Source of the DNA: a virus
Taxonomy: Duplodnaviria > Caudoviricetes
Length of the DNA: 64,000 nucleotides
IMG/VR virus record: IMGVR_UViG_3300031555_003108
Coordinates: 27,270-91,269 of that record
Strand: one strand, 5' to 3'
Below are positions 10,092 to 64,000 of this stretch, piece by piece. The translations under genes and the position numbers were made by a program. Position 1 is the stretch's first letter, and the number at the start of each line of letters is the position of its first letter. The notes below the pieces were generated by a model, which was not told the DNA's origin, searched no databases, and worked only from the letters and a program-made list of their open reading frames with translations.

Positions 10092-10109
10092 CTTTAGTCT
10101 CCTCCTACT

Positions 10110-10346
10110 TTAATCAAAACGAATTTCGGACACAACCGCAACCTTTTTGATTTCAAACTCTTTCTTATTCTTATGAGTATTATTAAACCAGACACAGTGC
10201 ATTTCACATATTTCAGGTGTAGGCTGAATATCAACCTTGAGCGGGTCTTCCGTCAAAGAAAGCCGATTAGTAATTCCATAACTGATAGCCAATCCCTTAC
10301 GAGACTCCTTATCAAAAGCTGCATAGCCGATAGTTTCTTTTTTCAT
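10110..10346 (-). CDS. hypothetical early protein
   Basis: Likely start MKKETI with GGAGGAAA RBS. Confidence 0.7.
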   Translation of the reverse strand: MKKETIGYAAFDKESRKGLAISYGITNRLSLTEDPLKVDIQPTPEICEMHCVWFNNTHKNKKEFEIKKVAVVSEIRFD

Positions 10347-10375
10347 TTGTATTTCCTCCAAAATGTATTGCTTGA

Positions 10376-10419
10376 TTACATATATATTATATCACAAAAT
10401 CCTCATTTTGTAAACTGAC
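10376..10419 (-). promoter_or_regulatory. strong early sigmaA-type promoter
   Basis: GTCAG-TTTACA-N17-TATAAT-ATATATGTAA. Confidence 0.85.
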
Positions 10420-10475
10420 AAAACAGCCAGAGTTTCAGAAATTTTTCATCCTTGCTCTGGCTGTTTTGTATAATA

Positions 10476-11198
10476 TTATTTTCGATTGTTATAATACCCG
10501 GAAAGCTTTGCAAAAGACTCAGCAGACTTTATCTGTCCGATTGCCTCATAACCATCATAGACTGTCCACTCGATACCGATGTATTCTCCCTTAGTAGTAA
10601 TCCTCTTCCTGAAATTATCCACCGAGAGGGGCGACTTAAAGAGATTCGTCATGAGAGTTACGAAGAAATCGAACTGAGTCATATCTACTCTTATCTGGCT
10701 GCCCTCAATTCGGAAAGGCAGAAGTGATTGCCCAAGAGTCCGTCCCTTTGCCGGCTTATAGTCTTCTACTACCGCGGAGTCAACAACAATCTCGCCAACC
10801 CCAGAAGTTAGAGTAATGTCCCCGAGACCCATTAGCTTATACTGTGTCGCTACCGGAATCTTGGGAAGATCGAGTACGTCTCCAGACCATTTAGTAATTG
10901 CTTTGATAGTAGGTCGGTACTGCTGATACCTCTGCATAGCATAAGTAAACTTCATCATCTGCGGTGGAGTCAGATCTCCCATCCCAACGATGTGATAGAG
11001 ATCAACCATAACTATCTTAGTCATGATTTCTTCTTCCACCGCACAGAAACTCTTTAGGTCCGTAGCTTCTGCGATAGTTAGTCTACCAAGATCATCAGTA
11101 GTTGTCACCTCACCAAGATGTACGGAACAGTGCTCAATACGCTTTTCCAGCGCTTCCATGATTTTCTGAAATTCTATCTTTTCCATATCTTTAATCAC
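10476..11198 (-). CDS. hypothetical protein
   Basis: ORF track, 240 aa. Confidence 0.8.
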   Translation of the reverse strand: MIKDMEKIEFQKIMEALEKRIEHCSVHLGEVTTTDDLGRLTIAEATDLKSFCAVEEEIMTKIVMVDLYHIVGMGDLTPPQMMKFTYAMQRYQQYRPTIKAITKWSGDVLDLPKIPVATQYKLMGLGDITLTSGVGEIVVDSAVVEDYKPAKGRTLGQSLLPFRIEGSQIRVDMTQFDFFVTLMTNLFKSPLSVDNFRKRITTKGEYIGIEWTVYDGYEAIGQIKSAESFAKLSGYYNNRK

Positions 11199-11517
11199 AA
11201 AATGCGTAGCTTACCTTCTGAGTAAACACTTGAGAACGCTCAAGTTCCTTCTTTCGGGCAAAGTCCTCAACGGTATGCTTCTGGTCAAGAACCTGCCTTA
11301 CCTGTCGAGCATTAAGTCGGATCATCTTCATTGCCTTCTGATCAGAAGTAAGTCTCTCAAAGATGTAGTAGTAAGACTGATGTCCCGGATACTTATTTCG
11401 TACTCTTCTTCCGAGATAGTCTCTCTTCTCCTTAAAGGCGGGCTGCACTCTCTCCACTCCCACGTGCGTGCACTCCCAGTCTCCAGACTTCATTCCAAGA
11501 TATTTAGATTTTCTCAT
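11191..11517 (-). CDS. basic hypothetical protein
   Basis: ORF track; GGAGGAA RBS. Confidence 0.75.
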   Translation of the reverse strand: MRKSKYLGMKSGDWECTHVGVERVQPAFKEKRDYLGRRVRNKYPGHQSYYYIFERLTSDQKAMKMIRLNARQVRQVLDQKHTVEDFARKKELERSQVFTQKVSYAFCD

Positions 11518-13271: not shown

Positions 13272-14132
13272 TTATAGTGCGTAAGATACCTTAAGGTCTT
13301 TCAAGGTGTGATCAAGATAACGATAAATTTTCTGATTATTTGATTTATTGATTACTCCAAGAACAGTGTCAAGTTTCTCCTCGGAAATGTTGTAACGCTC
13401 CATAAAGGTCTTCTTATAAGTCTCAGGAAGCTTACTTACAATCTGAACCAACTTATAAGGCCAGAACTCAGAGCTGTGCTCAATATATTTGTAAGCATCA
13501 CCTTCACGGTTGGTAGTCTTAATAACTTTCTTAAAGTGCTTCTGCACATCATTGAAAGCAATATTATCAATTAAGATTGCCTCAATGACCTTATTACTGT
13601 TTATGTAATTCTGTACGAGCATAATGACTGCGTCTGCTTCTGCTCCAAAGTCTACATTATCATCTTCGAGAGTATCAGCCAAAGTCTTTTCAGCATCATC
13701 TCCGTCTCCACAGATAGGTGCATCCATACTGGTACAGTGATTTACTGTCTTCTTTTTATCAAGTCTGAGGTCGTAATATTTCTGAAGCTTAATGGTATCA
13801 ATACACTTATTGATACACTGCTGAGCATTCAGTTTTTTAGTGGGGTCCTTCCAACCTCTGTACTTACAAGCGTACTCGATTGCCTCGTAGAGCCACCAGA
13901 AGAAATCTTCGTACTCAAGGCAGGGAGCTACGGTATTATTCTTATACATCTTATCGATAACGTACCAGAATCTGAGAATCAAAGCAGAAATATAAACGTC
14001 CTTCAGCGTAGAGTTATTAGTATCTACTGCTTCGCAGTAAGCGTCTGCGAGTTCGTCAATAGTGTAGCTCTCGTAAGGCTGGCTAAGCTTCTTAGCACAA
14101 ATCATGAGGTCTCTTTTTGTTTCCTGTAACAT
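13272..14132 (-). CDS. phage RNA polymerase sigma factor-like protein
   Basis: Region-2-like LILRFW...EDFFWWLYEAIEYA and region-3-like SMDAPI.GDGD...TLADTLED; likely ATG at 14132 with AGGAG RBS. Confidence 0.7.
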   Translation of the reverse strand: MLQETKRDLMICAKKLSQPYESYTIDELADAYCEAVDTNNSTLKDVYISALILRFWYVIDKMYKNNTVAPCLEYEDFFWWLYEAIEYACKYRGWKDPTKKLNAQQCINKCIDTIKLQKYYDLRLDKKKTVNHCTSMDAPICGDGDDAEKTLADTLEDDNVDFGAEADAVIMLVQNYINSNKVIEAILIDNIAFNDVQKHFKKVIKTTNREGDAYKYIEHSSEFWPYKLVQIVSKLPETYKKTFMERYNISEEKLDTVLGVINKSNNQKIYRYLDHTLKDLKVSYAL

Positions 14133-14201
14133 AGCAAGTATATCTCCTGTCAAATTTATCAAGTCGTAGTTTAGTCGTAGTTTAAGTTAATAATATGTAA
14201 A

Positions 14202-14927
14202 TTAAATCTGCTCGAGCTTTACTTTTGTTCCGCCGTCGTAAGCAAGACGATAGCCAACGTCTTTTCTATCAGCGAGTCTCTGGAAAGCTTCAGCAAGGCA
14301 CTGCAGTTGGTAAATTTCAGAAATGTCTACTTCGCCAACTTCGCTAACTTTGAGGTCATCGAAGCCGAGGTACTCAAGGTCATCAGCATAAGTAGCATTG
14401 AAGTTTTCTACAATCTTCTGCATCTCCTCAAGCTCGTAAGAAAGCTTAGAAAGCTCATTAACAAACTCTCTAATCTCATCACAAAGTCTGTCAAAAGCCT
14501 GAACGAGTCTGACAAACTCTACAAGCTCATCTCTATTTGCTTTTACAGAGCCGTAGTAGTCTCTCATATCAGCCTTATAATCTTCGTAGGTTTCATAGTC
14601 AAGAGTCTCAGGAAATACAGAACGATAATTATCTTTATTATAAAGAACAAGATAACCGCTGCTTCTACCATTAAAGCCAACGCTATAGCCGGGATGCTCA
14701 CGCTCCCAATCTTGGATCAGCCAGTTGATAGTATCATACTCACCAGACTCAAGATGAGCGAGCGCTCTCGTCCAGTCACCATCAAGACCGAGCTTATAAA
14801 GTTTTACGTTATGTGCAATGGAACGCGTTCCGTTCCAAGAGTTCATAGTATAATATGTAAAATGCTGAGCAATGAAATTAAACATGCTCTTATCTTTAGT
14901 AATGTCAACGCCTTTCGTATAAAACAT
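14202..14927 (-). CDS. conserved hypothetical phage protein
   Basis: YTMNSWN...AHNVK and GFNGRSSGYLVL motifs. Confidence 0.8.
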   Translation of the reverse strand: MFYTKGVDITKDKSMFNFIAQHFTYYTMNSWNGTRSIAHNVKLYKLGLDGDWTRALAHLESGEYDTINWLIQDWEREHPGYSVGFNGRSSGYLVLYNKDNYRSVFPETLDYETYEDYKADMRDYYGSVKANRDELVEFVRLVQAFDRLCDEIREFVNELSKLSYELEEMQKIVENFNATYADDLEYLGFDDLKVSEVGEVDISEIYQLQCLAEAFQRLADRKDVGYRLAYDGGTKVKLEQI

Positions 14928-27026: not shown

Positions 27027-27557
27027 TTATTTAATAACAGAATCAATACGAGAAAGTATGTCTTCTATAATTTCCTGTGTGGCTTCAGAAAGATTTTTCT
27101 CTGGGTCGGCTTTAGCTTTATTATAATAAAAATCACTAAGCTCTTTTATATCTCCCGAGGCTATAGAGAAGGAACCCCAGTCGCAGATCATCTCGAGTAT
27201 ATAGATATAAGGCATGTCCTCGCCGTCCCAGTACTCAGGATGATGCTCATTATTCATATAATGGTGTTCCCAAGCCTTTTCATATTCAGGAGTCTTCTTT
27301 CCGTCGCCGAACCACTTCTGAGCGTAAGGTTCAAACTCTTCTTCTGAGAACTTAGATTCGTCGTGCTCGGCTATGAGATCATTAAATACTTCTATATCTA
27401 TATTCTCGAAAAGGTCGGGACACTCTTTCTGGAGCCAAGAAGAAAACTGAGTAACTCTTTCTTTATGTTCTATAACATAGTTCTTATATTCTTCCTGATA
27501 ACCGTCGAGGCCTTCAGTAATCATATCTAAAAACTTATAAGCTTGAAGTAAATTCAT
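27027..27557 (-). CDS. HD-superfamily (DUF5662-like) protein with N-terminal leader
   Basis: HK..V, HDESK, AW.HH...N.HHPEYW, EMICDW. Confidence 0.75.
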   Translation of the reverse strand: MNLLQAYKFLDMITEGLDGYQEEYKNYVIEHKERVTQFSSWLQKECPDLFENIDIEVFNDLIAEHDESKFSEEEFEPYAQKWFGDGKKTPEYEKAWEHHYMNNEHHPEYWDGEDMPYIYILEMICDWGSFSIASGDIKELSDFYYNKAKADPEKNLSEATQEIIEDILSRIDSVIK

Positions 27558-27583
27558 TTAGTTTTGCCTTTCTATAAATAAAA

Positions 27584-28786
27584 TTAATCCCAAAGATTTT
27601 CGTAAAGCTTGAAGTCGTCGGCTATAGAAAAAGATTCAGTAAGACTTTTATGTTCAGGACTTCCTGTCTTAGGAACATGAAAGTGAGTTTTAATTTTTAA
27701 TAATAAGTCTTCCCAGCCGACGGCGGATTTAGTAGCTATTCGCTGTCCGTCCATATCTAAATGAATAAAAAATAGATCACCAAATTTACACTCTACTTCT
27801 AAACTAAGGTTATACTCGTCTCCATTGGTAAAGGCTCTCTGCTCTTCGTACTCGAAGCCAGTGTCATTCGGCCCGTTTACAGAAGTAAAAATAACAGAAG
27901 AATCTTTATGCTTCTGCATATAAGCTACTAACTCAGCAAATTTTTCTTTATTAGTTTTAGAAGAAGTTGCTGAAGCGGACTGAGAAGCTTTAGGAGGATT
28001 CATAAGCTGCCATTCATTAAGAGATTCAGTAAGAAGGTCGTCATAATCTGAAGTTCCTTCGTTCGGAAGAAACATATAGGTGTCAGTAAGAATTTCTAAA
28101 ACTTTCTCATAGCCTTCGTAATCGTTTTGATAAACTACTTTGCCATCCACGAAAATACTAAGATAGAATTCATCAGTATATTTATTAACACTTACTATAA
28201 TAGTTCTATCGAATTCATCATTACCAGTATTATAGTGCTCACTAAGGTGGAAGCTGTATTCCTTAATATCCTTGTAAGTAATGCTCTCTAGCTCGGAGGA
28301 AGCATGGTCTATATGATACTTAATAAGTTTTTCAAATCTTTTCTTGTAGCCGCCGGTAGAAGGAGTTTTATTGTTCATAGCAACCCACTCAGTAAGTAAG
28401 TTCTTATACTCAAGCTCTCTAGTTTCCGGAACCACTATATAAGGTCTAAGAGTTTTTAAAAGCTCAGGCCAGCCGGTTCCTTTTAGTTCCTCATCAAGTT
28501 GTCTATTAACAAATATTCTTACTTGCCAATCTTCTGAAGCAGGGTCAATAGAAATTTTATATTCTACTACCTGTCCGTCATCGTACTGCTCAGCGAACCC
28601 GAGCCTGTCCTTAGTAAGTAAGCCGACGAAAAGATAATCTACGTCAACGGGAAGATTGTCACCATGATATCTAATTAACTTCGCAAGCCGCTTCTTAAAA
28701 CCTGTATTAGAAGAAGTACTCACTACTGAAGCTGTATTAGAACTCGCAGCAGGCTTATTTATATATTGCCATTCTCTTAATTCCAT
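27584..28786 (-). CDS. three-repeat putative polyprotein (L-x-E|W junctions)
   Basis: Three ~125-aa homologous units, each starting after LRE/LTE/LNE + W; late promoter at 28886. Confidence 0.8.
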   Translation of the reverse strand: MELREWQYINKPAASSNTASVVSTSSNTGFKKRLAKLIRYHGDNLPVDVDYLFVGLLTKDRLGFAEQYDDGQVVEYKISIDPASEDWQVRIFVNRQLDEELKGTGWPELLKTLRPYIVVPETRELEYKNLLTEWVAMNNKTPSTGGYKKRFEKLIKYHIDHASSELESITYKDIKEYSFHLSEHYNTGNDEFDRTIIVSVNKYTDEFYLSIFVDGKVVYQNDYEGYEKVLEILTDTYMFLPNEGTSDYDDLLTESLNEWQLMNPPKASQSASATSSKTNKEKFAELVAYMQKHKDSSVIFTSVNGPNDTGFEYEEQRAFTNGDEYNLSLEVECKFGDLFFIHLDMDGQRIATKSAVGWEDLLLKIKTHFHVPKTGSPEHKSLTESFSIADDFKLYENLWD

Positions 28787-28885
28787 GTTAAGTTCTCCTT
28801 ATAATAAAAGCTCCCGAGAAAGCCAGCTCTCAGAAGCATACTATCAAATGAGTCTATTTGTCGCATCCACTTTTTCCCATTCATT

Positions 28886-28895
28886 TAATTTAGCA
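28886..28895 (-). promoter_or_regulatory. putative late promoter TGCTAAATTA
   Basis: Consensus match. Confidence 0.65.
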
Positions 28896-29035
28896 TAATA
28901 TTTTAATTAATTTATTATTTTAATAATCTGATAATTTATCAGGTATGAAGGATTAAGGAAGAAAGAAGTATGTTATTTATCATATATGATAAATTATAAA
29001 AAGAACTTAAGTATTTCTACCTAAGTTCTTATATT

Positions 29036-29821
29036 TTAATTATCTGCTTTTATACATTCTTCTTCTGTATATTCATCTACAGGTTCTTCAACAATTTGTT
29101 CTTCTGTTTCATAGGTGACCGAGATCTCAATACCGAAACGAGACTTTAATAGTTCTTTTGCTTTTTCTCCTACTTCATTATTATTAAGAGTAAGATTAAA
29201 TAAAGCTTCTTTTAGATGAGTACAGGGAACACATTCTCCACATACTTTTTCTCCTTCATATATAACAGCCTCGCAGGAAGTGCAGAGTTCTACCAAGTAA
29301 GGAAATTCTTCCATAAGTGTTTTAACTACATCTGTTTTATTAAAGTACTTAAGAGGATAATGTGTATAGATTATTTTATCTTCTTGTATTTTACATGCCG
29401 CCTTAATTAAGTTATTAATATTTTTTTCATGGAGTATCGCTTGGTCATTTTGATTATAACCCAAATACAAGGTATCTTTATGTTCCAGGATGGGAATAAT
29501 ATTGCACAGCCAAAAAATAGGTTGAGCTAATCCTCTGCTATTATAAGCGTCGCCTGTGATCCAATTCGATTCTACATGAATTACTTCATGTTCAATTTTA
29601 ATTTTAGGAAATTGTTTGCGCAGTTCCCTGAGAATTAAGAGCTGACTCTCATATTCTCTTCTAAGCTTTTGTGTTCCTGTAAGATTGTGATCAATCGTGA
29701 CGGCACAAACAGAAGTGTTATCTTCTGCTTCTTTTACTAATCTCGCAAGAACAAGAGCAGAATCAAAGCCACCAGAGAAGAGAACTATTTTTCTATTTCC
29801 TTTTTCTAAAGTATAAGACAT
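29036..29821 (-). CDS. queC: QueC-like (7-cyano-7-deazaguanine synthase family) PP-loop ATPase
   Basis: VLFSGGFDS PP-loop; TSC...CGECVPC Zn site. Confidence 0.7.
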   Translation of the reverse strand: MSYTLEKGNRKIVLFSGGFDSALVLARLVKEAEDNTSVCAVTIDHNLTGTQKLRREYESQLLILRELRKQFPKIKIEHEVIHVESNWITGDAYNSRGLAQPIFWLCNIIPILEHKDTLYLGYNQNDQAILHEKNINNLIKAACKIQEDKIIYTHYPLKYFNKTDVVKTLMEEFPYLVELCTSCEAVIYEGEKVCGECVPCTHLKEALFNLTLNNNEVGEKAKELLKSRFGIEISVTYETEEQIVEEPVDEYTEEECIKADN

Positions 29822-30196
29822 TTAGTTTTCTCCTCTCAGAAATTCTTTATGGTCATTGCTATCAAGGTATTCAGCAGTCAAAGGAGTTCTATTAAGAGGA
29901 ATTCCCTGCTTATCAAGATACTTACATACTTCAAAGCTAAGGTCCTCAAGGGCTTCCTTATAAGAACCAATTAAACAACCATCATGCAGAGTTCTTACTT
30001 GTTTACCAAGGAAATCTACGAAGTCATAGAACTTCTTATTCTGGTCCTCAAAGGAATCTACAGTAGGTTCCTGGTCGAGAAGGCAACCGGCCAGATTAAG
30101 ACCATCGCGCCAGTCCTCGCCTTCATGTTGATAGTCAGGTTCTCTACTTACTTTGTCAAGGGTTTCTTGAAATTTGTTCGCGTCAATAAGTCTCAT
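29822..30196 (-). CDS. hypothetical phage protein (MRLIDA...PTV family)
   Basis: N-terminal MRLIDAN motif. Confidence 0.75.
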   Translation of the reverse strand: MRLIDANKFQETLDKVSREPDYQHEGEDWRDGLNLAGCLLDQEPTVDSFEDQNKKFYDFVDFLGKQVRTLHDGCLIGSYKEALEDLSFEVCKYLDKQGIPLNRTPLTAEYLDSNDHKEFLRGEN

Positions 30197-30197
30197 A

Positions 30198-30464
30198 TTA
30201 TCCTCCTTCAGTTATATCAATAAGTTCTTTCTGCCAACTAAAGATTTTTCTTTCCTGCAGAAATCTTTCTGACTCATACTCATTGAAAATATATTTCATG
30301 TAAACATTAGAAGCTTTAATTACAAGACCGTTACCAGCTTCAACTACCAGTTCGGCAGTATCCTCACCTAAAAGGCCTTTAGTTACATTAATATTAAATT
30401 TATAATTTTCTGAATATGTTGAGTGCAGGAACTTAAGAACATCATTATAAAATTGTGTAGTCAT
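30198..30464 (-). CDS. hypothetical protein
   Basis: AGGAGG RBS; middle promoter 30493-30502. Confidence 0.7.
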   Translation of the reverse strand: MTTQFYNDVLKFLHSTYSENYKFNINVTKGLLGEDTAELVVEAGNGLVIKASNVYMKYIFNEYESERFLQERKIFSWQKELIDITEGG

Positions 30465-30650
30465 AGTATTCCTCCTAAATATTCTTTAATATATAATACA
30501 GCAGCGACAGATAGATTTTAACATGAAATATATTTTTCTTATCTTAAAACTTAAACTCATTTTCTATATAGGTTATTTATTATATTGTTTTATATATGAG
30601 ATTAAGGTAAAACCTTAACTCATTTATTTTTTTTCATGTCGCCGGAAAAG

Positions 30651-30685
30651 AAAAAGAACGATACCCATTAGATACCGTTCTTTTT
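30651..30685. terminator. bidirectional intrinsic terminator
   Basis: AAAAAGAACG...CGTTCTTTTT. Confidence 0.65.
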
Positions 30686-30688
30686 ATA

Positions 30689-30979
30689 TTATACTGCTAC
30701 CTTTGCAAACTCTTCTCCACGGTCGCAGAAGCTATAAATCATGCTTCTAACAAGTCCCCAGCTCATGCCACTATGATTCTGAGCTTCCATAAGTTTAAGG
30801 GCGTGAGATAAGTCACAACCCTCGTTGAGAGCTTTTACAATCTCAAGGCAGCAACCAAGCTCCATACCGTGATAAAGATCATCTAATCTAATAGGAACAC
30901 ACTTATCCCAATCTTTCCAATATTTTTCATCGATAATCTTATGGCCTTCTTCAATCCAATGTTTAACATTATTATCCAT
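30689..30979 (-). CDS. conserved hypothetical phage protein
   Basis: QNHSGMSW...FCDRGEEF motif; own promoter at 31021. Confidence 0.75.
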   Translation of the reverse strand: MDNNVKHWIEEGHKIIDEKYWKDWDKCVPIRLDDLYHGMELGCCLEIVKALNEGCDLSHALKLMEAQNHSGMSWGLVRSMIYSFCDRGEEFAKVAV

Positions 30980-31102
30980 ATTATTTTTTACCTTTCTTAA
31001 AATATATTTTTAATATTAATATTATACAATATAAAAATCTAAATTTTGATAAAGATTACAAATAGATAAGGAACCTGCTCATGCGGAAATACATCTTCTA
31101 TA

Positions 31103-31447
31103 TCATCTCCAATATTTCATAGACTCAGTAATTTTCTTATAATTATCTCTTACTTCTTGCTGAGTCATTTTTCTTACTTGCTCCGGCGTGAACATATCTT
31201 CTTCGATAGTAGTAATTTTAGAAATTGCTTCTGCAGCTAAAGAAGGTCTGGCTTTACAGATACCCGCTTCAATCAGATATTCCCCGAGGTCTTTTAGAAT
31301 ATCGTATGTATTTCTATAATAACCGTAATCTGTTTTTGTTTCTACCCCAAAACGCCTTAGATAATATTCTGCAGTAGCTACCCTGCTTTGTTCTTCCTGC
31401 TCTTCTTCATAGGTTTTAGTATATTCTAATTTTGTTGATTCGTACAT
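31103..31447 (-). CDS. hypothetical protein
   Basis: ORF track; GGAGG RBS. Confidence 0.7.
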   Translation of the reverse strand: MYESTKLEYTKTYEEEQEEQSRVATAEYYLRRFGVETKTDYGYYRNTYDILKDLGEYLIEAGICKARPSLAAEAISKITTIEEDMFTPEQVRKMTQQEVRDNYKKITESMKYWR

Positions 31448-31461
31448 ATTAAGCCTCCGTG

Positions 31462-31842
31462 TTATTCAACCCAGTCCTCGAAATGATAGATTCCGTCTTT
31501 GCAGTAGCTGTGGCTATAAGCTTTCATAAATTCATTATATTCTGCCACAGTCATATTTTCTTCATCTATAGTTGCCTCGTATTTATACCTTCCACTTGGT
31601 ACTCTGAAAAATAGCCCGAGGGTGCAACCCATGATTAAAAGCACGCATAAACCAGCTGTGCCAATATAAAGAATAGCCTTTGACAACTTTTCGTTAGAAA
31701 GCTTTTTATGATCCTTAAAAGAATAGATTAACAAACCTATAAGAAAGATGATCATAGAAAAACCAAAGATGCCAATAACATTAGTTGCCCAAGGCGCCAT
31801 CATTGTAATAGATTCTTTAGAAATAATATTTACATGATCCAT
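31462..31842 (-). CDS. membrane protein (2 TM)
   Basis: Two hydrophobic helices. Confidence 0.75.
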   Translation of the reverse strand: MDHVNIISKESITMMAPWATNVIGIFGFSMIIFLIGLLIYSFKDHKKLSNEKLSKAILYIGTAGLCVLLIMGCTLGLFFRVPSGRYKYEATIDEENMTVAEYNEFMKAYSHSYCKDGIYHFEDWVE

Positions 31843-31870
31843 TTGGTTAGTCCTCCAAAATATTTAGTTA

Positions 31871-32056
31871 TCATTTCTTTTTCCATTTGTCATGTTCCGC
31901 CACGAGATACTCAAATACCTCAGGTGAAACTAAACGCTCTAAAAGTTCAGTACGAACCTCGATAAAGTGATATGTATTATCAAGATAATTATATCCACAT
32001 TCAATACAAGTACCGCAAGCAAAGCCGCGAGTATTTTTACAACTAGGACATTCCAT
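31871..32056 (-). CDS. small Zn-finger protein
   Basis: CPSC...CIECG; AGGAGG RBS; promoter at 32088. Confidence 0.7.
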   Translation of the reverse strand: MECPSCKNTRGFACGTCIECGYNYLDNTYHFIEVRTELLERLVSPEVFEYLVAEHDKWKKK

Positions 32057-32164
32057 TAATACTTCCTCCTATTAATTTCTATATAATATTATACAGTAGC
32101 AATCTGCCTAAAATAAAGGAAAAAGAAAAAGCTTAAAGATTTTACTCTCTAAGCTTTTATTATT

Positions 32165-34072
32165 TTAATTATTGTTCATGGTTTCGGCTTTATACTCTCT
32201 AAAGTATTTTAGCACTTCTTCTTTGGTTAATTTAACTGGCCCATTTGGGTCTGTAACTTTTTCAAGCCAAGCTTTATAGTTATAGTCAGTATTTCCATAA
32301 AGTGCAACTGCGCTTATATCAGTTGCATACTTTCCCATATAATTATTATATGCAAGAGACAACGCCGTTGGATATTCTGTAGCAAAATTTTTAAGATATT
32401 TTAAAGTGTTTTTCCTATTTGTGTTAGCAGCTTTTTTAAATAAATCTTTTATTGGTAACCGGTCTACTGCTGGCATGCCTTTGCTTAATGTTACTAAATC
32501 TCTTGAGTTATAATTAAACTTTTGTTTACAGTACTTTGAAAAATGGCTCCAATCTACATTTACAGGCTCTAGTGCAGTTATATTAGTACGAATAGCGTTT
32601 GTATTTTTGATGAACCAGTCGGTATAAGCTATCGCCAAACTTTTCTCAGGAGACTCTGTAGTAAGTTGTGTAAGGAATGCTTGAATTGTATCGGCACTTT
32701 TAGTTTTGTCTGCGAAGGCTTCTTCTGCATTAAATAGTGACTGGCCTGTATTATAGATCGCATAAATATCTTTTATATTTAGCCCATGTTCTTGTATTGC
32801 TTCTAAGAAAGCTTTGTAGTTGTATTTTTCATTAGTTGTTATGTCTGCAGTAGAGGTAGTATTTTTAGATAGTGCCGCGTTATATGCTATATTATAGCCA
32901 TTAGTATTCTTATACTTTGTTAACTCATTTTTAACAAAATCGATAACTGCTTCTCGAGAGCTTGTAATTTTGTAGAAGTATTCCATAATAGAAGGTTTTT
33001 TGAGTGTCTTAGCTCGTTTTATGCTCAAGTCAATCTCTGGGATATTAGATTCTTCTTTTGACTGATAAACATAGATTGTGAGGTCTTGCTCTTTTACTAA
33101 TTTACGAAGCCACATTACATCAGGTGCAGTATTTTGTTCGTTATCATAATTATTTTCTTTATAATTAGAAGGTAGAACAATACCGACTATGCAGTCTTCT
33201 ATCCTTAGATACGGCTGATCGTCTGCTAGCCATACTCTAAACTCACCTTCATTAAGATTAGTGTGCTCTTTTATATAATCTAAAAGTCCCGGTATTTCTT
33301 TATAGAGGTCAACAAAGTATGGAGACAGAATCTGCGTTCTACAGAAGCCTCTTAGAATAAAGCCTTCGACTACTCTTGATTCTATAGGACGACGTTTTAC
33401 TAAATGTTTTTCTATTTCTTCTATATCTTCTGTATATGATATTAGAGTATCAGGCTTAGTTTCACGTCGTTCTTCGATAAAGGCATCAAAAAAGTTTTTT
33501 ATTTTATCATAAAAGTCAGTTCTTCCAACGTCAACACCTTGATGCTGTTTGAGTGCTTGTCTTATATTATCATTTAAGTTGATTGTAAAGCTACCAAACG
33601 AAGTAATAAGTAATTCAGTTCCATCTTGTAGCTTCGCTGCGCCATATACGTGCATAGTGCTGCCGGGGTGGTCGAAGTCAGTGCTAATGTTAGCACCTTG
33701 TAATTGTTGTACTCTATCCTCAAGCTTTTCTTGGCTTACAGCAATACCATATTTCCATTTTTTTGGCGCACGATAAGCATGACTAAACAATTGACGAGAG
33801 AAAGATACAAATGGACGTTTTTTATGCTGTTTTTCTCCACGAGGTGTTTGAGTATCCGTTTCTTTCTGTTGAGAAGCTTTGATACGTCCTCTGCCTATAA
33901 TAGCAGCTAAAGTATGTATATCTTCTACAAAGTAACGTAATACACCTTCTATAGTGGTAGCTTCTTCTCCGTAAACTACTTCAGCTCCAGGAGTATCAAA
34001 TTTTTCTTCTAGGCCATTATTAATATCTGAAAGTTCTTCATATATACGTAAAAACTCTTCATTTAAAAGCAT
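32165..34072 (-). CDS. putative ADP-ribosyltransferase-fold protein with C-terminal repeats, late-expressed (Alt-like head cargo)
   Basis: LRYF..L..II..G.IKAS, FVSFSR, EGEFRV; three ~85-aa C-terminal repeats; late promoter 34108-34119. Confidence 0.55.
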   Translation of the reverse strand: MLLNEEFLRIYEELSDINNGLEEKFDTPGAEVVYGEEATTIEGVLRYFVEDIHTLAAIIGRGRIKASQQKETDTQTPRGEKQHKKRPFVSFSRQLFSHAYRAPKKWKYGIAVSQEKLEDRVQQLQGANISTDFDHPGSTMHVYGAAKLQDGTELLITSFGSFTINLNDNIRQALKQHQGVDVGRTDFYDKIKNFFDAFIEERRETKPDTLISYTEDIEEIEKHLVKRRPIESRVVEGFILRGFCRTQILSPYFVDLYKEIPGLLDYIKEHTNLNEGEFRVWLADDQPYLRIEDCIVGIVLPSNYKENNYDNEQNTAPDVMWLRKLVKEQDLTIYVYQSKEESNIPEIDLSIKRAKTLKKPSIMEYFYKITSSREAVIDFVKNELTKYKNTNGYNIAYNAALSKNTTSTADITTNEKYNYKAFLEAIQEHGLNIKDIYAIYNTGQSLFNAEEAFADKTKSADTIQAFLTQLTTESPEKSLAIAYTDWFIKNTNAIRTNITALEPVNVDWSHFSKYCKQKFNYNSRDLVTLSKGMPAVDRLPIKDLFKKAANTNRKNTLKYLKNFATEYPTALSLAYNNYMGKYATDISAVALYGNTDYNYKAWLEKVTDPNGPVKLTKEEVLKYFREYKAETMNNN

Positions 34073-34107
34073 TTGTTTAATTCCTTTCAGTTATAGTTTC
34101 TTATGTA

Positions 34108-34119
34108 TAATTTAGCAAA
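34108..34119 (-). promoter_or_regulatory. putative late promoter TTTGCTAAATTA
   Basis: Consensus match. Confidence 0.75.
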
Positions 34120-34633: not shown

Positions 34634-35314
34634 TTATGCAGCCTTCTGAAGCAGGGTCCAGTTGTACCAACCATAGAAAGCATTAGCAGTCCAAGCAATG
34701 TACATAGCAACCATAGACCACTGACCGAGAATAATAAACATAATCAAACTTACTACGTCGATAAGAATCCAACAAGCCCACTGTTCTCTGTATCTCCAAA
34801 CCATAAGAAGCTGAGCAATTACAGCGAGTGCGACAGTCATAGCATCAAGATAAGGAAGAGTACTTCCAAGAACTGCTTCGCCAAAATAACCAAGCAAGAA
34901 GGTACTAAGAGCAACTACACTGGTAGCCACAAGCCACTGCCAAAGTTTAAACTTCTTAGCTTTTACCTGTTTAGTTCCGTCGTCATTCTTCTTCATATTT
35001 TTCTTCCACATGAATACACCGAAGATACAAACAATAAAGTAAAACACCTGTTCACCAAACTCAAGATAAAGAGCGAAGTCCCAACAGATAATCATGTAGG
35101 TAATCATCTGAACAAAGTTAAAGATATACGAAGAAATCTTTCCCTTCGCTGTAAGGGCGACGCAGATAACACCGGCAAGTCCGCAGACAATCCCGATAGC
35201 AGAGTCAGGTACAATGAAATACATAATCACCTGAAGCAGGATCAAGGAAGCGAAAAAGATTTTCTCAAAAGTAGTGTAACCATTCCAAAATTCATTCTTA
35301 AGCCATTTTACCAT
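34634..35314 (-). CDS. pnuC: nicotinamide riboside transporter PnuC
   Basis: About 7 TM helices; PYLDA, REQW..W, YGW..W; adjacent to nadR. Confidence 0.9.
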   Translation of the reverse strand: MVKWLKNEFWNGYTTFEKIFFASLILLQVIMYFIVPDSAIGIVCGLAGVICVALTAKGKISSYIFNFVQMITYMIICWDFALYLEFGEQVFYFIVCIFGVFMWKKNMKKNDDGTKQVKAKKFKLWQWLVATSVVALSTFLLGYFGEAVLGSTLPYLDAMTVALAVIAQLLMVWRYREQWACWILIDVVSLIMFIILGQWSMVAMYIAWTANAFYGWYNWTLLQKAA

Positions 35315-36407
35315 TTTCAATAATCTCCTTTACATCATCAACAATTTTCTTAAAGTTATTATAATATCCGCCATCGAGAATAACTACCTTATCCCAATTA
35401 CCGGAAGCTTTGATATTATTACAAAGAATTTCAAAGAGCTCTCTTCTTTCTGTGTCACCGCTAAAAGCCATATAGCGAGTGTGATCATCTACAAATGTTC
35501 CGTGAGGGCAGAGTAGGTAAATCTTATCCCAACGACATTTCTTAGTGATTGCATCAGCTGCAACAGCAATATCTTTAAACTCTTCTTCAGTAAGGTCGAG
35601 CTCAGGATCTTTGTGATAATATTCAGCATACATGCGAGTAGTCATGCTATCAGAGTCCGCAAAGAAGATTCCCTGATTACTCGGCGAGTTAATCAACTTC
35701 TTATTCATCTGATACTGTCCGTCGAGAAAAGCAAGGTAGTCAGCTCCGTCAAGTTCCCATTCTGAGATAGAGCTTTCTTTCATATAGTCTCGGGCATATT
35801 CGTGAGAATAAGGTGCATTGAAATATTTGCCGAGGTCTTTTACTAAAGTTGTCTTACCTTCACTCGCTGTACCGCAGATCAAGATGTTAGTGCTGAATAC
35901 TCTTCTAAAAGGAAAAGTAATTTTATCCCAATACTTAATGGGATTCTGTCTAATCATCGTTGCCGAAATAGGATTAAGTGTTCGGTCGAGCTTTACTACT
36001 CCATAGCCGAGGCTTTCAAGATGAGTTGCATACTCTTCTTCGCTCACATAAAATACAAGCCGACCAGCAGCAGTAGCAGATGCAAGAATTTCTTCAACTT
36101 TGGCCATGAACTTATCCCAGCCATTCGGATAAGCTTCAATGCCGAGTTCAGTTTCATCAATAGGGTAAACCGCCACAAGATCGTCGTCAGCAAAGAGTTC
36201 TCTCACATAGCGATAACGCAGCTTAAGAGGCATAAGCTCTCCACCTCTGTCACCCTCTCTACCATCTACGAGAACTACACATCCTCCGTCGCATTCTTTC
36301 TTAGCTCTCATAATAACATCGAGATGTCCTTGATGAAGAGGTGCAAAGGTTCCGAAAACAACTCCGACCTTTTTTCCTTTCAATCGTTCCTGATAAGTAT
36401 AAATCAT
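35298..36407 (-). CDS. nadR: NadR-type NMN adenylyltransferase / ribosylnicotinamide kinase (no HTH)
   Basis: FGTFAPLHQGH, ISAT.IR, GTASEGKTT P-loop, EYAR.Y. Confidence 0.9.
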   Translation of the reverse strand: MIYTYQERLKGKKVGVVFGTFAPLHQGHLDVIMRAKKECDGGCVVLVDGREGDRGGELMPLKLRYRYVRELFADDDLVAVYPIDETELGIEAYPNGWDKFMAKVEEILASATAAGRLVFYVSEEEYATHLESLGYGVVKLDRTLNPISATMIRQNPIKYWDKITFPFRRVFSTNILICGTASEGKTTLVKDLGKYFNAPYSHEYARDYMKESSISEWELDGADYLAFLDGQYQMNKKLINSPSNQGIFFADSDSMTTRMYAEYYHKDPELDLTEEEFKDIAVAADAITKKCRWDKIYLLCPHGTFVDDHTRYMAFSGDTERRELFEILCNNIKASGNWDKVVILDGGYYNNFKKIVDDVKEIIENGKMA

Positions 36408-37924: not shown

Positions 37925-38479
37925 ATGTATTACTGTACTATTTACAAACAATCAAAGCTGTCTGACAAAAACACCTGCGAGGTATTTATCTGTTTATCTT
38001 ACTTAGATAGAGCAGACGCAGAAAAGTATCAACAAAATTTAATTCAACAAGCCATCGAAGCAGGTGGTCGTACTTATTTAACTGAAGGTAATTATACTAC
38101 AATAACCGGCAAAATAGTACTTAAGCCGACTGGTATCACAAGTAATCGAAGTGGCAATCACTATAGAATTGGTATAGAGAGTGAGTCTACGAAATTTTCT
38201 ATTATACCTGCTAAAGCAAAATCTTTAATTCCGGCTTACAAAATAACTGATGGGCTTGCTTATGAAATTTATGTAGAAGAAGCCCAGCAGCGACAATTAA
38301 ACGAGACTTTGGCAAGACAAGAAGAAGTTAGCACTAACTTAACGAAATTTACCGAAGAGATAAAACCAATGACTGACCTTTATGCAGTTTTAAGATCATT
38401 TGTTAAATATCATAATCAGAAGTCAGATAAAGAGCTGCTCGCTGCAATAGCTATTGAAAAAATTCAAGAATTAATTTAA
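37925..38479 (+). CDS. hypothetical protein (only + strand gene)
   Basis: AAGGAGG RBS, own promoter, convergent terminator. Confidence 0.85.
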   Translation: MYYCTIYKQSKLSDKNTCEVFICLSYLDRADAEKYQQNLIQQAIEAGGRTYLTEGNYTTITGKIVLKPTGITSNRSGNHYRIGIESESTKFSIIPAKAKSLIPAYKITDGLAYEIYVEEAQQRQLNETLARQEEVSTNLTKFTEEIKPMTDLYAVLRSFVKYHNQKSDKELLAAIAIEKIQELI

Positions 38480-55719: not shown

Positions 55720-55731
55720 TAATTTAGCAAA
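55720..55731 (-). promoter_or_regulatory. late promoter TTTGCTAAATTA
   Basis: Overlaps upstream stop; precedes sheath. Confidence 0.75.
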
Positions 55732-58717: not shown

Positions 58718-60202
58718 TTAATTTTTTGCGATCTTAAAAGATTCTGTAATAAGAGTTTTATTTTCGGTGCGACCAACAATAAAGAATTGCTTATCTAAAC
58801 CAAGTTTTTCATTTAAGCCTCGTAGAGTAATTTTGCCATCCTCAACAAGAGCCTCATTAAAAGTATAAGCTATTTTTCTTGTATTACCAGAAGTAAAATG
58901 TACAACACCTTCAACCATAAACTTATTATCTGAATAAGAGCATTCCTTTAATCTAAAGCCTGCAACATTACCATAAAGCTCGACTAGTGCATCCGACATC
59001 ATATACTCAAGAGCATCTTCCTGAAGTTCGTCAACGCTCTCAAAAACACTATCTAAGCTTTCTTCTTTCTTAGACTTTTCTTCATCTTCCATAGCAAGCA
59101 TAGCTCTAACAGCGGTATCGGAAATAGGCTTTTTAAACTCAGACGAGTTCATAAGTTGGTCAAATTCTGCATCAGATACATCAGAATCAGTATCTTCGTG
59201 GAGTGCTTCAGTAAGGCTCTCATTGACCTCTTCAGTTTCCACAGGCATGTCTTCTGCAACAGGTTCTTCTGCATCTGTTTCGTTCTCTGCAAGTTCTTCT
59301 GCACTAACTTCATCGTTTTTTACTGCATCAGGAAGTGCATTTTCTAAGTCAGCTTTAAAAGCATCGATTCTTCTCTGGATAGCATCTTTAACCTGAGCAT
59401 TTTCAGTTTTTTCAAGAGCGGCTTCTTCCTGAGCAATCATATTTCTAAGATATTCAATATATTCGTTATGCGCCTCAAGCTTTGCGTCAAGGTCTTTGTC
59501 ATCAGCGAGCTCCTCTACAAGAGCTTCGCCTGTGTGAGTAACAAAAGATTCTTCTTTCTTTTCTTCTCCCTCTACATCATCTTCGATATTATCAAGGTCA
59601 AATTCTTCTAGCTCATCATCGAAGTTGAGGTCTTCCTCAGAAGATTCTTCTGTAGTTTCTTCAGCAGCCTCTTCACTCTCAACGTCAAGATCAAGCTCAC
59701 CTTCTGCAGGAAGTTCCTCGGGAGCAGCTTCTTCTGGCTCAGCTTCACCAACCTTACCAATGATACTGTAGCCACTCTCATTTCCGCAGTGCTGACAAAC
59801 TTCATTAACGTTTACTGTAGCAGGGTCTTCCTCAGAAGCGACTACGTCTTCCGGATTTTTATAGAAAAGTGTCATACATTGAGGACACTGCATAATTAGC
59901 TTGCCAACATAAGAGGTAAGAAGGTCTTCAGCTGACTCTGCATCAAGGTCAACAATTTTTTCAATGCGAGCAAGCTTTGCCTGTGCCACTTCGGCTTCTC
60001 TGGCATCTTTTGCATCTTCTAAACCTTCATTACTACTAATGTCATAATACTCTTCCATAAGAGTATCGAACTTAGTTTTACGTGAAAAAATTTCTGTAAG
60101 TGCAGGACGATTAGCTCTAACTTTTTCCGCCTGTGGTATTTCGATTTCATCGAGCGCCTTAAAAGCGGCTTCTAAGTCAAACTTTGTAATAGATTCTTTC
60201 AT
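58718..60202 (-). CDS. acidic scaffold/core-like head protein with Zn finger
   Basis: Very acidic; many L-x-E sites (LMEE, LVEE, SLTE, LHE, ITE); CPQC..CQHC. Confidence 0.6.
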   Translation of the reverse strand: MKESITKFDLEAAFKALDEIEIPQAEKVRANRPALTEIFSRKTKFDTLMEEYYDISSNEGLEDAKDAREAEVAQAKLARIEKIVDLDAESAEDLLTSYVGKLIMQCPQCMTLFYKNPEDVVASEEDPATVNVNEVCQHCGNESGYSIIGKVGEAEPEEAAPEELPAEGELDLDVESEEAAEETTEESSEEDLNFDDELEEFDLDNIEDDVEGEEKKEESFVTHTGEALVEELADDKDLDAKLEAHNEYIEYLRNMIAQEEAALEKTENAQVKDAIQRRIDAFKADLENALPDAVKNDEVSAEELAENETDAEEPVAEDMPVETEEVNESLTEALHEDTDSDVSDAEFDQLMNSSEFKKPISDTAVRAMLAMEDEEKSKKEESLDSVFESVDELQEDALEYMMSDALVELYGNVAGFRLKECSYSDNKFMVEGVVHFTSGNTRKIAYTFNEALVEDGKITLRGLNEKLGLDKQFFIVGRTENKTLITESFKIAKN

Positions 60203-62159: not shown

Positions 62160-62171
62160 TGCAGTATCTCC

Positions 62172-63455: not shown

Positions 63456-64000
63456 TTAGTCAACAATCTTACCAGCGATAAGGAGGTTCTTGTTAAGAAG
63501 AGCCTTAGCATACCAGGTGCTGAAGCCCTGTGCCATACCGCCGTCAGGAGTACCAAGAAGCTGGGTAGGAACGATAGCCATATATGGCGCATATACGCCG
63601 GCACTGGACATCATGTCGTTACCGTTGAGACCAAGGAAGAACTCGCCAGCTCCCATCATAGGAGAAACGTAAACGTTCATACCATCAAGCTCACCAACCT
63701 TGTAAGGACCATTCATCTTAACGTTCTTAACAGCAGTAAAGCCATTTACGAAACGAAGAACAGGAAGGATATCAGAAGCGATTACCATGTAGTTAGGATG
63801 GAATTTCTTAGTTCTATCATAGATGATAGCCTTAGCCATTTCAACGATTTCAAGGAAGCCGTTGTAGTGCTCGAACTTAGAAACGCCAACAGGAAGAGTC
63901 TTAGACCAAGTTAACTTAGCGAGCTCTTCTGCAGTTGTGCCTTCCTTAGCACCGTCTTTAAGCATACCAACGATCTCGGTGTCGATCTCGTAAGCAAGCT
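63456..64000 (-). CDS. major capsid protein, T4 gp23-like (3' part; runs off window end)
   Basis: LAYEIDTEIV; VGELDG..VY; GVYAPY..I...GFSTWY; strong terminator. Confidence 0.85.
   Translation of the reverse strand, partial: LAYEIDTEIVGMLKDGAKEGTTAEELAKLTWSKTLPVGVSKFEHYNGFLEIVEMAKAIIYDRTKKFHPNYMVIASDILPVLRFVNGFTAVKNVKMNGPYKVGELDGMNVYVSPMMGAGEFFLGLNGNDMMSSAGVYAPYMAIVPTQLLGTPDGGMAQGFSTWYAKALLNKNLLIAGKIVD

What the first reader, a model, noticed from the sequence alone, without database searches (positions are those of the whole stretch)
27027..34119. Putative capsid-cargo system: shared targeting helix plus L/I-x-E cleavage on unrelated late-expressed enzymes
Seen: late-promoter genes outside the structural module carry a similar short amphipathic segment cut off from the body by an L/I-x-E site: NLLQAYKFLDMITE| (27557, HD protein), EEFLRIYEELSDINNGLEE| (34072, ART-like) and C-terminal SLTE|SFSIADDFKLYENLWD (27584). 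The scaffold-like gene 60202 starts with DLEAAFKALDEIE. Established: T4 internal proteins and Alt use a removable capsid-targeting sequence cleaved after (I/L)-x-E. Inference: a portable tag, usable at either terminus, that packages effectors for injection with the DNA (anti-defence or host takeover), and a possible protein-delivery tool.
Basis: partly seen in the sequence, partly recalled or inferred. Interest (0 to 1): 0.8.

Follow-up and report, generated by a model that had tools for sequence, protein, structure and literature searches.

The report
Portable capsid-loading tags on phage enzymes
An uncultured ~220-kb T4-like phage lineage puts one short acidic helix at the very start or very end of at least a dozen unrelated proteins, usually set off by a Leu/Ile-x-Glu site. 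The helix most likely loads these proteins into the phage head for trimming by the head protease, as phage T4 does with its internal proteins, but no virion data exist.

Summary

**What holds**
- The N-terminal peptide of the 635-aa protein and the C-terminal peptide of the 400-aa protein belong to one recurrent, strictly terminal tag family.
- In three related genomes a strict pattern hits 12 times against 0.01-0.02 expected per genome. All 12 hits are terminal.
- The tag sits on 12 unrelated protein bodies: an ADP-ribosyltransferase-fold protein, nucleases, an acetyltransferase and others.
- The true partner of the 635-aa tag is a 410-aa nuclease upstream of the window.

**What does not hold**
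- The HD (DUF5662) N-terminus is a clade-specific 21-aa extension ending I-x-E. It cannot be shown to be the same tag.
- The resemblance of gene 60202 is at chance level.

**Capsid-loading reading: circumstantial support**
- Complete relatives (220-233 kb) carry a T4 gp20 portal, a gp21-type protease fused to a scaffold-like tail, and a gp23-type capsid protein.
- L/I/M-T-E-S marks the capsid propeptide, the protease-scaffold and the tag boundaries.
- Tagged genes share a promoter-like motif with the tail and head operons.
- The tag has E-E-F at residues 5-7, where the T4 capsid targeting sequence has Q-E-F.

Packaging and cleavage are untested. This scan has reported similar T4-like tags in other uncultured jumbo phages; use at the C-terminus is what distinguishes this case.

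The parts
32165..34072 (-). 635-aa cargo protein: N-terminal tag, disordered linker, ADP-ribosyltransferase-fold domain (about residues 40-340) and a helical C-terminal part
   Evidence: ORF. AlphaFold model: helix 6-21, residues 1-39 at pLDDT <50, then the body. VIA-align: Z 9.5 to Tpt1 and 8.6/8.0/7.4 to DarT, with many other ADP-ribosyltransferases at Z 4-5. No Pfam or PHROG hit.
34013..34072 (-). Tag type A, residues 1-20 (M-x-L-N-x-E-F-x-x-[IL]-Y-E-E-L-S-x-[IL]-N)
   Evidence: Shared with the 410-aa nuclease. Profile hits lie at protein N-termini. Invariant L14 uses 5 codons and S15 uses both TCN and AGT codons, so selection acts on the peptide.
34004..34012 (-). L-E-E (residues 21-23), candidate protease site between tag and body
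   Evidence: Across 14 homologs L21 is invariant, E23 is nearly invariant and residue 22 varies. NUDIX-insertion variants have L-T-E after the tag and L-V-E before the body.
34108..34117 (-). TGCTAAATTA promoter-like motif upstream of the 635-aa gene
   Evidence: Nine copies in the window against 0.6 expected, all on the coding strand. The same motif precedes all 9 tagged genes in the metagenome loci.
27584..28786 (-). 400-aa protein of three ~125-aa repeats, each boundary marked L-x-E-[WS]; candidate polyprotein cargo
   Evidence: Repeat alignment. Boundary sites at residues 3, 131, 252/256 and 382. Family of 201 proteins: 109 of the 120 listed start M-x-L-x-E-[WF], and there are 176 internal L-x-E-W junctions with x free.
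27587..27634 (-). Tag type B at the C-terminus (last 16 residues, core D-F-K-L-Y-E-N-L-W-D)
   Evidence: 105 of 120 homologs end in it. The type B profile hits only this site in the contig's ORF set (E 1.9e-9). The same peptide is N-terminal in P0094 and in G001/G002 genes.
27635..27643 (-). L-T-E (residues 382-384) just before the C-terminal tag
   Evidence: [LI]-x-E lies upstream of the tag in 104 of 105 tagged homologs, mostly [LI]-x-E-S 7-9 residues before the Phe, with x = C, T, A, Q, E, V, L....
28886..28895 (-). TGCTAAATTA motif upstream of the 400-aa gene; the HD gene follows 26 nt downstream
27027..27557 (-). DUF5662 (HD-like) protein with a clade-specific 21-aa N-terminal extension
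   Evidence: Pfam PF18907 covers residues 22-169. Distant homologs in other phages match only from residue 22-23.
27513..27557 (-). HD N-terminal peptide (residues 1-15) ending I-T-E; possible third tag class, unproven
   Evidence: Conserved in 120 homologs, with [IV]-x-E-G at residues 13-16 in 95 of them. pLDDT 51-59 for residues 1-20. Not detected by the tag profiles.
58718..60202 (-). 494-aa very acidic protein with a Cys-x-x-Cys pair, downstream of the capsid gene; not a tag carrier by any test
   Evidence: Sequence. N-terminal similarity to the tags is at chance. It carries I-T-E-S six residues from the C-end. Its homolog holds the same position in G001.
63456..63998 (-). C-terminal 180 aa of the gp23-type major capsid protein; the gene runs off the contig end
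   Evidence: Pfam PF07068, E 1.4e-12. 84% identical to the complete capsid protein of relative G001.
55720..55729 (-). The same promoter-like motif upstream of the tail sheath gene (53850-55649)

Best explanation
The tag is a capsid-targeting propeptide of the phage T4 kind, in a longer form that works at either end of a protein.

**Proposed mechanism**
- A 12-20-residue acidic amphipathic helix (core F, 1-2 residues, [LI]-[YF]-E-[EN]-[LM]) at the extreme N- or C-terminus docks the protein to the scaffolding core while the prohead assembles.
- The gp21-type head protease then cuts after Glu at [LIMV]-x-E, inside or next to the tag. This frees the mature protein, which stays in the head with the DNA and probably enters the host at infection.
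- In this window the cargo would be the 635-aa ADP-ribosyltransferase-fold protein and the 400-aa three-repeat protein, the latter possibly cut into about 125-aa units. The DUF5662 protein may be a third cargo.

**Shown here**
- The tag is real, strictly terminal, portable and under peptide-level selection.
- The lineage has the T4-type head machinery.
- L-x-E marks the boundaries.

**Inferred**
- Binding to the core, cleavage, packaging and injection.
For: **The tag is real and terminal**
- A strict tag pattern gives 3, 5 and 4 hits in the own contig, G001 and G002, against 0.01-0.02 expected. Ten hits put Phe at residue 6-7 and two end at the C-terminus.
- The tag sits on 12 unrelated body families.
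- Codons vary under invariant residues, and the 5' leaders are not conserved.

**The lineage has T4-type head genes**
- All five IMG/VR relatives have Peptidase_S77 above the curated cut-off, immediately upstream of a Gp23 capsid gene.
- G001 also has a Gp20 portal.
- The window's capsid fragment is 84% identical to G001's.

**L-x-E marks boundaries**
- The capsid protein has [LMI]-T-E-S at about residues 48-51, before the Gp23 domain starts at residue 68.
- The protease-scaffold has L-T-E-S after the protease domain, and [IV]-[TA]-E-S before a C-terminal peptide.
- [LI]-T-E-S is enriched: 12 observed against 3.0 +/- 1.7 expected.
- x is free while L and E are fixed at the tag boundaries.

**Promoter-like motif shared with structural genes**
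- The motif precedes 3 of 3 tagged genes here, 9 of 9 in the metagenome loci and 5 of 8 in G001, against 25 motifs in 339 ORFs. It also precedes the sheath and baseplate genes and the genes after the capsid gene.

**Comparison with T4**
- The T4 capsid targeting sequence is M-K-T-Y-Q-E-F-I-A-E (10.1101/2021.01.19.427310). Targeting depends on residues 4 and 7, processing on residues 8 and 10, and gp21 cuts after L/I-x-E (PMC9026906). The tags here have E-E-F at residues 5-7 followed by [LI]-x-E.
- T4 Alt, an ADP-ribosyltransferase, is packaged and cut at both termini (PMC9026906).
Against: - There is no virion proteome, N-terminome or transcript data for any member.
- The protease gene of this very phage lies off the contig (42% complete).
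- In 5 of 24 tag examples I see no clear [LIMV]-x-E between tag and body, only the L-Y-E inside the tag (my reading). For a C-terminal tag, a cut at that internal site would not detach the tag.
- [LI]-x-E is common in helices.
- Some cargo (GIY-YIG and Vsr-like nucleases) resemble homing endonucleases, which have no obvious need to be packaged.
- The promoter-like motif also precedes endonuclease-like genes and genes of unknown function, so 'late' is inferred, not shown.
- The resemblance to the T4 sequence rests on about 4 positions.
Confidence: 0.6

Rival explanations
1. The terminal helix is a docking motif for some other shared partner, not for the capsid. Candidates are a phage-encoded inhibitor or chaperone that keeps toxic enzymes silent, or a host hub protein. 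The nearby L-x-E is then just part of the helix or linker.
For: - Short terminal linear motifs commonly bind hubs.
- The cargo are potentially toxic enzymes: ADP-ribosyltransferase fold, nucleases, acetyltransferase.
- 5 of 24 tags lack a boundary L-x-E.
Against: - It does not explain why the same [LIM]-T-E-S marks the capsid propeptide and the protease-scaffold.
- It does not explain why every repeat junction of the 400-aa family keeps L-x-E with a free x.
- It does not explain the promoter-like motif shared with structural operons.
Confidence: 0.2
2. The tag is a timing or turnover signal, such as a degron or an activation propeptide cut in the cytoplasm. It would limit the activity of these enzymes to a window of infection without packaging them.
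For: Terminal position and a protease-type site next to the tag. Zymogen-like control would suit nucleases.
Against: T4-type S77 proteases are known to act inside the assembled prohead (PMC9958956, PMC9026906). I looked for no other protease gene in these genomes, so a cytoplasmic one is not excluded. Acidic amphipathic helices are not typical bacterial degrons (own knowledge).
Confidence: 0.1
3. The shared ends come from shuffling of promoter-leader gene cassettes. They would be recombination scars like the repeated regulatory cassettes of T4-type phages, and the peptide itself would have no function.
For: Tagged genes are often single units behind the same promoter-like motif.
Against: - DNA between the motif and the ATG is not conserved, and conserved residues use many codons, including both Ser codon families.
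- The tag also occurs at C-termini in more than 100 proteins.
Confidence: 0.04

Closest known systems
Phage T4 capsid targeting sequence (CTS) of internal proteins IPII/IPIII (and IPI), removed by prohead protease gp21
   Same: - A short N-terminal peptide shared by unrelated proteins.
- A phage with gp20/gp21/gp23-type head genes.
- An L/I-x-E site at the end of the peptide.
- Glu-Phe at residues 6-7.
- Swappable cargo behind a constant leader (PMC9026906; 10.1101/2021.01.19.427310).
   Different: - Here the tag is 12-20 residues, acidic and helical, with a different sequence.
- It also occurs at the C-terminus and once internally.
- It sits on enzymes of 130-840 aa rather than small basic proteins.
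- The protease is fused to a scaffold-like region.
- Nothing has been tested experimentally.
Phage T4 Alt (packaged ADP-ribosyltransferase)
   Same: An ADP-ribosyltransferase-fold enzyme with a removable terminal peptide in a T4-type phage. Alt is cut by gp21 at both termini (PMC9026906).
   Different: - The 635-aa protein has no detectable sequence similarity to any Pfam family.
- Its fold is nearest DarT/Tpt1.
- Catalytic residues were not verified.
Propeptides of phiKZ-like giant phages cut by gp175-type proteases
   Same: Many head and ejected proteins carry propeptides cut after Glu by a diverged gp21 homolog, with redundant sites (PMC9026906).
   Different: The motif there is S/A-x-E, and no single portable tag sequence is described. 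The lineage and head architecture differ.
Encapsulin cargo-loading peptides and the P22 scaffold coat-binding domain (own knowledge)
   Same: It works like them: a short terminal peptide, at either end depending on the system, is enough to load foreign cargo into an HK97-fold shell.
   Different: Those peptides are not removed by a maturation protease and have unrelated sequences. Encapsulins are not viruses.
Trafficking domains of polymorphic toxins (e.g. MIX, LXG; own knowledge)
   Same: A constant address module is joined to interchangeable nuclease, ADP-ribosyltransferase or other toxin bodies.
   Different: The delivery vehicle here would be a phage head, not a secretion system, and the address is only about 15 residues.

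Membership tests
T4-type capsid targeting propeptide system | The phage encodes a gp21-family (Peptidase_S77) prohead protease | tested here: met
   Found above the Pfam cut-off in 5 of 5 related IMG/VR genomes, directly upstream of the capsid gene. Not found in the own contig, which ends inside the capsid gene. For this phage it is therefore inferred from synteny and from 84% capsid identity.
T4-type capsid targeting propeptide system | gp23-family major capsid protein and gp20-family portal | tested here: met
   PF07068 in the window and in relatives. PF07230 portal in G001.
T4-type capsid targeting propeptide system | The same short terminal peptide on otherwise unrelated proteins | tested here: met
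   (12 body families; all strict hits are terminal).
T4-type capsid targeting propeptide system | The peptide is bounded by the protease's cleavage motif (L/I-x-E in T4) | tested here: inconclusive
   - Present with a free x in the 635-aa family and in 104 of 105 C-terminal tags.
- The same motif occurs in the capsid propeptide and the protease-scaffold.
- 5 of 24 examples have only the L-Y-E inside the tag.
- The protease's real specificity is unknown.
T4-type capsid targeting propeptide system | Tagged proteins are present in virions with the tag removed | not testable with these tools
   No cultured member and no proteome.
T4-type capsid targeting propeptide system | Sequence relationship to the T4 CTS | tested here: inconclusive
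   Shared M1, E6 and F7, with [LI]-x-E after it, by eye against the published 10-mer. The peptide is too short for statistics.
T4-type capsid targeting propeptide system | Late expression together with head genes | tested here: inconclusive
   The shared TGCTAAATTA motif precedes sheath, baseplate, post-capsid genes and tagged genes. It also precedes endonuclease-like genes, and there are no transcript data.
ADP-ribosyltransferase superfamily (635-aa protein) | ART fold | tested here: met
   VIA-align Z 9.5 (Tpt1, rmsd 3.3, 110 aligned) and Z 8.6/8.0/7.4 (DarT). A long run of other ADP-ribosyltransferases follows at Z 4-5, all over residues about 40-340. Foldseek alone was not significant.
ADP-ribosyltransferase superfamily (635-aa protein) | Catalytic motif residues in place | not tested
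   The family has invariant Arg, S-x-S and E-G-E positions, but they were not mapped onto the structural alignment.

The most novel reading that the evidence does not exclude
This jumbo-phage lineage uses one address peptide that works from either terminus, and between polyprotein units, to load an interchangeable arsenal into the head for delivery with the DNA. The arsenal would include an ADP-ribosyltransferase, nucleases, an acetyltransferase, a NUDIX fusion and repeat 'internal proteins'. C-terminal tags and L-x-E-delimited polyproteins would be natural features not established for T4. The tag would then let the injected proteome be read from sequence, and it would be a ready-made protein-packaging handle for phages of gut bacteria.
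Probability: 0.45. Interest if true: 0.75.

Novelty: new variant of a known kind. Interest (0 to 1): 0.6.

Why it matters
- **Reading the injected proteome from sequence.** If the tag is a loading signal, the set of proteins that this uncultured ~220-kb phage lineage carries into its host can be read directly from genome sequence. There are at least 8 candidate tag-bearing proteins in one complete genome.
- **Function for genes of unknown function.** Candidate first-strike effectors emerge: an ADP-ribosyltransferase-fold enzyme next to NAD-salvage genes, nucleases and an acetyltransferase.
- **Extending the T4 paradigm.** The T4 capsid-targeting model would extend to C-terminal tags and to polyprotein cargo.
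- **A practical handle.** It offers a natural peptide for packaging foreign proteins into phage heads.

The general idea is already known from T4, and the evidence here is comparative only.

Tried and rejected
**Searches that found nothing**
- No nucleotide or protein match in the INPHARED phage collection, apart from one weak tail-sheath hit.
- IMG/VR scans with the 635-aa protein, its family alignment, and a degenerate DNA pattern for the tag found nothing. Relatives were reached only through the DUF5662 alignment.
- PDB sequence searches for the 494-aa, 471-aa and 635-aa proteins gave nothing useful.
- Foldseek against PDB was not significant.
- The ESM Atlas gave nothing for the 400-aa protein.
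- A literature search for the motif strings found nothing relevant.

The 219-234-kb Logan/ENA contigs that encode homologs could therefore not be read.
- Metagenome loci cannot be searched as whole records.

**Ideas tested and dropped**
- Profiles of tag A and tag B do not detect the HD N-terminus or gene 60202. All-against-all N-terminal alignment puts those similarities within noise.
- The C-terminal peptide of the protease-scaffold (acidic run, then L-x-x-L-Y-E-L) looks like tag B by eye. The tag B profile does not pick it up, so I do not claim mimicry.
- The DNA-cassette explanation is rejected on codon evidence.
- My first tag A profile also missed the C-terminal tag B. The link between the two rests on P0094 and the G001 genes, where tag B occupies the N-terminal slot.

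Full report
**Setting**

The window is bases 27270-91269 of a 91,269-bp IMG/VR virus contig that CheckV rates 42% complete. Almost all genes lie on the minus strand. The following genes mark it as a distant T4-type myovirus:
- a gp23-type capsid fragment running off the contig end;
- a gp19-type tail tube, a T4 baseplate protein and a tail sheath.

Nothing similar is in the cultured-phage collection.

**Checking the peptides**

A 410-aa zinc-ribbon/Vsr-like nuclease 6.9 kb upstream of the window shares the first 20 residues (12 identical, 17 similar) and nothing else.
- Among 10,011 pairs of N-terminal 25-mers this pair ranks third. Only two pairs of full-length paralogs score higher.
- The DNA is not conserved between promoter and start codon.
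- Across 11 tags the invariant Leu-14 uses five codons, and the invariant Ser-15 uses both TCN and AGT. Selection therefore acts on the peptide.

*Profile search.* A profile of the two tags was run against 1.84 billion representative proteins. It returned 17 hits at E<=1e-3, and 15 of them match at residues 1-6 of the protein. Their bodies are unrelated:
- the 635-aa family;
- a version with a NUDIX domain inserted between tag and body;
- nucleases;
- a 'WCITG' domain family with varied C-terminal ends;
- several orphans.

*400-aa protein, C-terminus.* My tag A profile missed this peptide, but homologs settle the matter. The 400-aa family has 201 members, of which 120 were examined.
- 105 of the 120 end in D-F-[KR]-x-Y-E-N-L-W.
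- 104 of those have [LI]-x-E upstream, mostly [LI]-x-E-S 7-9 residues before the Phe, with x free.

The same peptide opens other proteins at the N-terminus. In P0094 it occupies exactly the slot that tag A fills in its homologs. In the complete relative G001 it starts a GIY-YIG nuclease and two orphans.

*Census.* A strict pattern for the common core gives 3, 5 and 4 hits in the own contig, G001 and G002, against 0.01-0.02 expected per genome. All 12 hits are terminal: ten place Phe at residue 6-7 and two end within one residue of the C-terminus. Counting looser cases, the tag sits on 12 body families with no BLAST similarity to each other. 'A portable tag usable at either terminus' is therefore confirmed as a sequence fact.

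**The two weaker examples**

*HD protein (Pfam DUF5662, residues 22-169).*
- It has a 21-residue N-terminal extension that is conserved in 120 close homologs and ends [IV]-x-E-G in 95 of them.
- The extension is missing from the distant homologs in smaller phages, which align only from residue 22-23.
- It is modelled at pLDDT 51-59, against 81-98 for most of the body.
- It shares the M-x-L-x-x-x-[FY] skeleton with the tags, but neither profile detects it (E about 7), and its alignment scores are within noise.
- It may be a third tag class; I cannot show it.

*Gene 60202.*
- Its similarity scores to the two confirmed N-terminal tags are 13 and 14, at the mean of all pairs (14.6).
- It is not the scaffold of this lineage.

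**Is there a matching protease?**

The contig stops inside the capsid gene, and no S77 protease is found in it. Five IMG/VR relatives were reached through the DUF5662 alignment. One is 233,329 bp and rated 100% complete; another is 220 kb and rated 96%.
- All five carry Peptidase_S77 above the curated threshold, directly upstream of a Gp23 capsid gene.
- In G001 the order is Gp20 portal, two small genes, a 632-aa protein, then the capsid gene.
- In that 632-aa protein, residues 38-143 are the protease and the rest is acidic and coiled-coil-like.
- The genes after the capsid gene match the window's order. The window's capsid fragment is 84% identical to G001's.

**The cleavage-type motif**

- The capsid proteins of four distinct relatives carry [LMI]-T-E-S at about residues 48-51, ahead of the Gp23 domain that starts at residue 68.
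- The protease-scaffold has L-T-E-S just after the protease domain. It also has [IV]-[TA]-E-S 20-30 residues from its C-terminus.
- Its N-terminus has I-L-E ending at residue 9-10. This matches the L-I-E ending at residue 9 noted for T4 gp21 (PMC9026906).
- [LI]-T-E-S occurs 12 times in G001 against 3.0 +/- 1.7 expected from shuffles, with a maximum of 8 in 200 shuffles.
- In the 635-aa family, Leu-21 is invariant and Glu-23 nearly so, while residue 22 varies. In the NUDIX-insertion variants L-T-E follows the tag and L-V-E precedes the body.
- In the 400-aa family every repeat junction reads L-x-E-W: 176 junctions with x free. 109 of 120 proteins begin M-x-L-x-E-[WF]. This is what a polyprotein cut into about 125-aa units would look like. 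A syntenic relative (L010) has tag A, the WCITG domain, a zinc ribbon and two such repeats in one 511-aa protein.

Caveats:
- [LI]-x-E is common in helical proteins.
- In 5 of 24 tag examples I see only the L-[YF]-E inside the tag and no boundary site (my reading).

**Promoter-like motif**

- TGCTAAATTA occurs nine times in the window against 0.6 expected, always on the coding strand.
- It precedes the sheath gene, the baseplate unit and the genes after the capsid gene.
- It precedes all three tagged genes of this contig.
- It lies 35-47 nt upstream of all nine tagged genes recovered from a metagenome assembly.
- In G001 it precedes 5 of 8 tagged genes, against 25 motifs in 339 ORFs.
- It also precedes endonuclease-like genes and genes of unknown function. 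'Late' is plausible, not shown.

**Comparison with T4**

- The published T4 capsid targeting sequence is M-K-T-Y-Q-E-F-I-A-E (10.1101/2021.01.19.427310).
- Targeting depends mainly on residues 4 and 7, and processing on residues 8 and 10.
- gp21 cuts after L/I-x-E.
- Alt and gp21 are also processed at the C-terminus (PMC9026906; PMC9958956).
- The tags here read M-x-L-x-E-E-F, followed one or two residues later by [LI]-[YF]-E. They share the Glu-Phe at residues 6-7 and a following L/I-x-E, on a longer helix.

**The cargo**

- The 635-aa protein has an ADP-ribosyltransferase fold nearest Tpt1 and DarT (Z 9.5-7.4). It is thus a functional counterpart of T4 Alt.
- Its model shows helix 6-21, a disordered stretch to residue 39, then the body.

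**Verdict**

A real, portable, terminal tag exists. The best-supported mechanism is T4-type capsid targeting with proteolytic removal (confidence about 0.6). The evidence is entirely comparative. The same kind of tag has been reported by this scan in other uncultured T4-like jumbo phages. Here the distinguishing points are C-terminal use and the L-x-E-delimited repeat protein.

Noticed in passing
window 34634-36407 (-): A PnuC-type NMN transporter (PF04973) and a NadR-like NMN adenylyltransferase/kinase lie 0.6-2.3 kb upstream of the ADP-ribosyltransferase-fold gene, with one small gene between. This puts NAD salvage next to a likely NAD consumer.
   Followed up: partly
P0014, P0015 (homologs of window 32165-34072): Some homologs of the 635-aa protein carry a ~200-aa NUDIX domain inserted between tag and body. 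The tag stays at the N-terminus and L-x-E lies on both sides of the insert.
   Followed up: partly
window 31103-31447 (-): A 114-aa protein of unknown function ends in I-T-E-S followed by only five residues. It is one of four [LI]-T-E-S sites in the contig.
   Followed up: no
window 61041-63329 (-): An EcoRI-like adenine methylase and a ParB/HNH endonuclease sit between the capsid gene and the next head-module gene. They are absent at that position in relative G001, so they look like a mobile insertion.
   Followed up: no
L106:14262-16160 (G001): In relatives the T4-type prohead protease is fused to a ~450-aa acidic, coiled-coil, scaffold-like region in one 632-655-aa protein.
   Followed up: partly
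window 37925-38479 (+); L108:1390-2007 (G001): The only sizeable plus-strand ORF in this part of the window is conserved in relatives (68-88% identity). In G001 its positional counterpart, similar at the N-terminus by eye, ends in a tag-A-like C-terminal peptide that the window's copy lacks.
   Followed up: no
G001 9536-11404 and 228029-229897; 13946-14572 and 232439-233065: ORFs of equal length with matching printed fragments recur about 218.5 kb apart in the 233-kb contig. This suggests a terminal repeat or an assembly wrap-around, and a unit genome of about 218 kb.
   Followed up: no
window 29036-29821 (-): A QueC-like PP-loop protein, possibly for 7-deazaguanine DNA modification, lies between the two tagged genes.
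   Followed up: no
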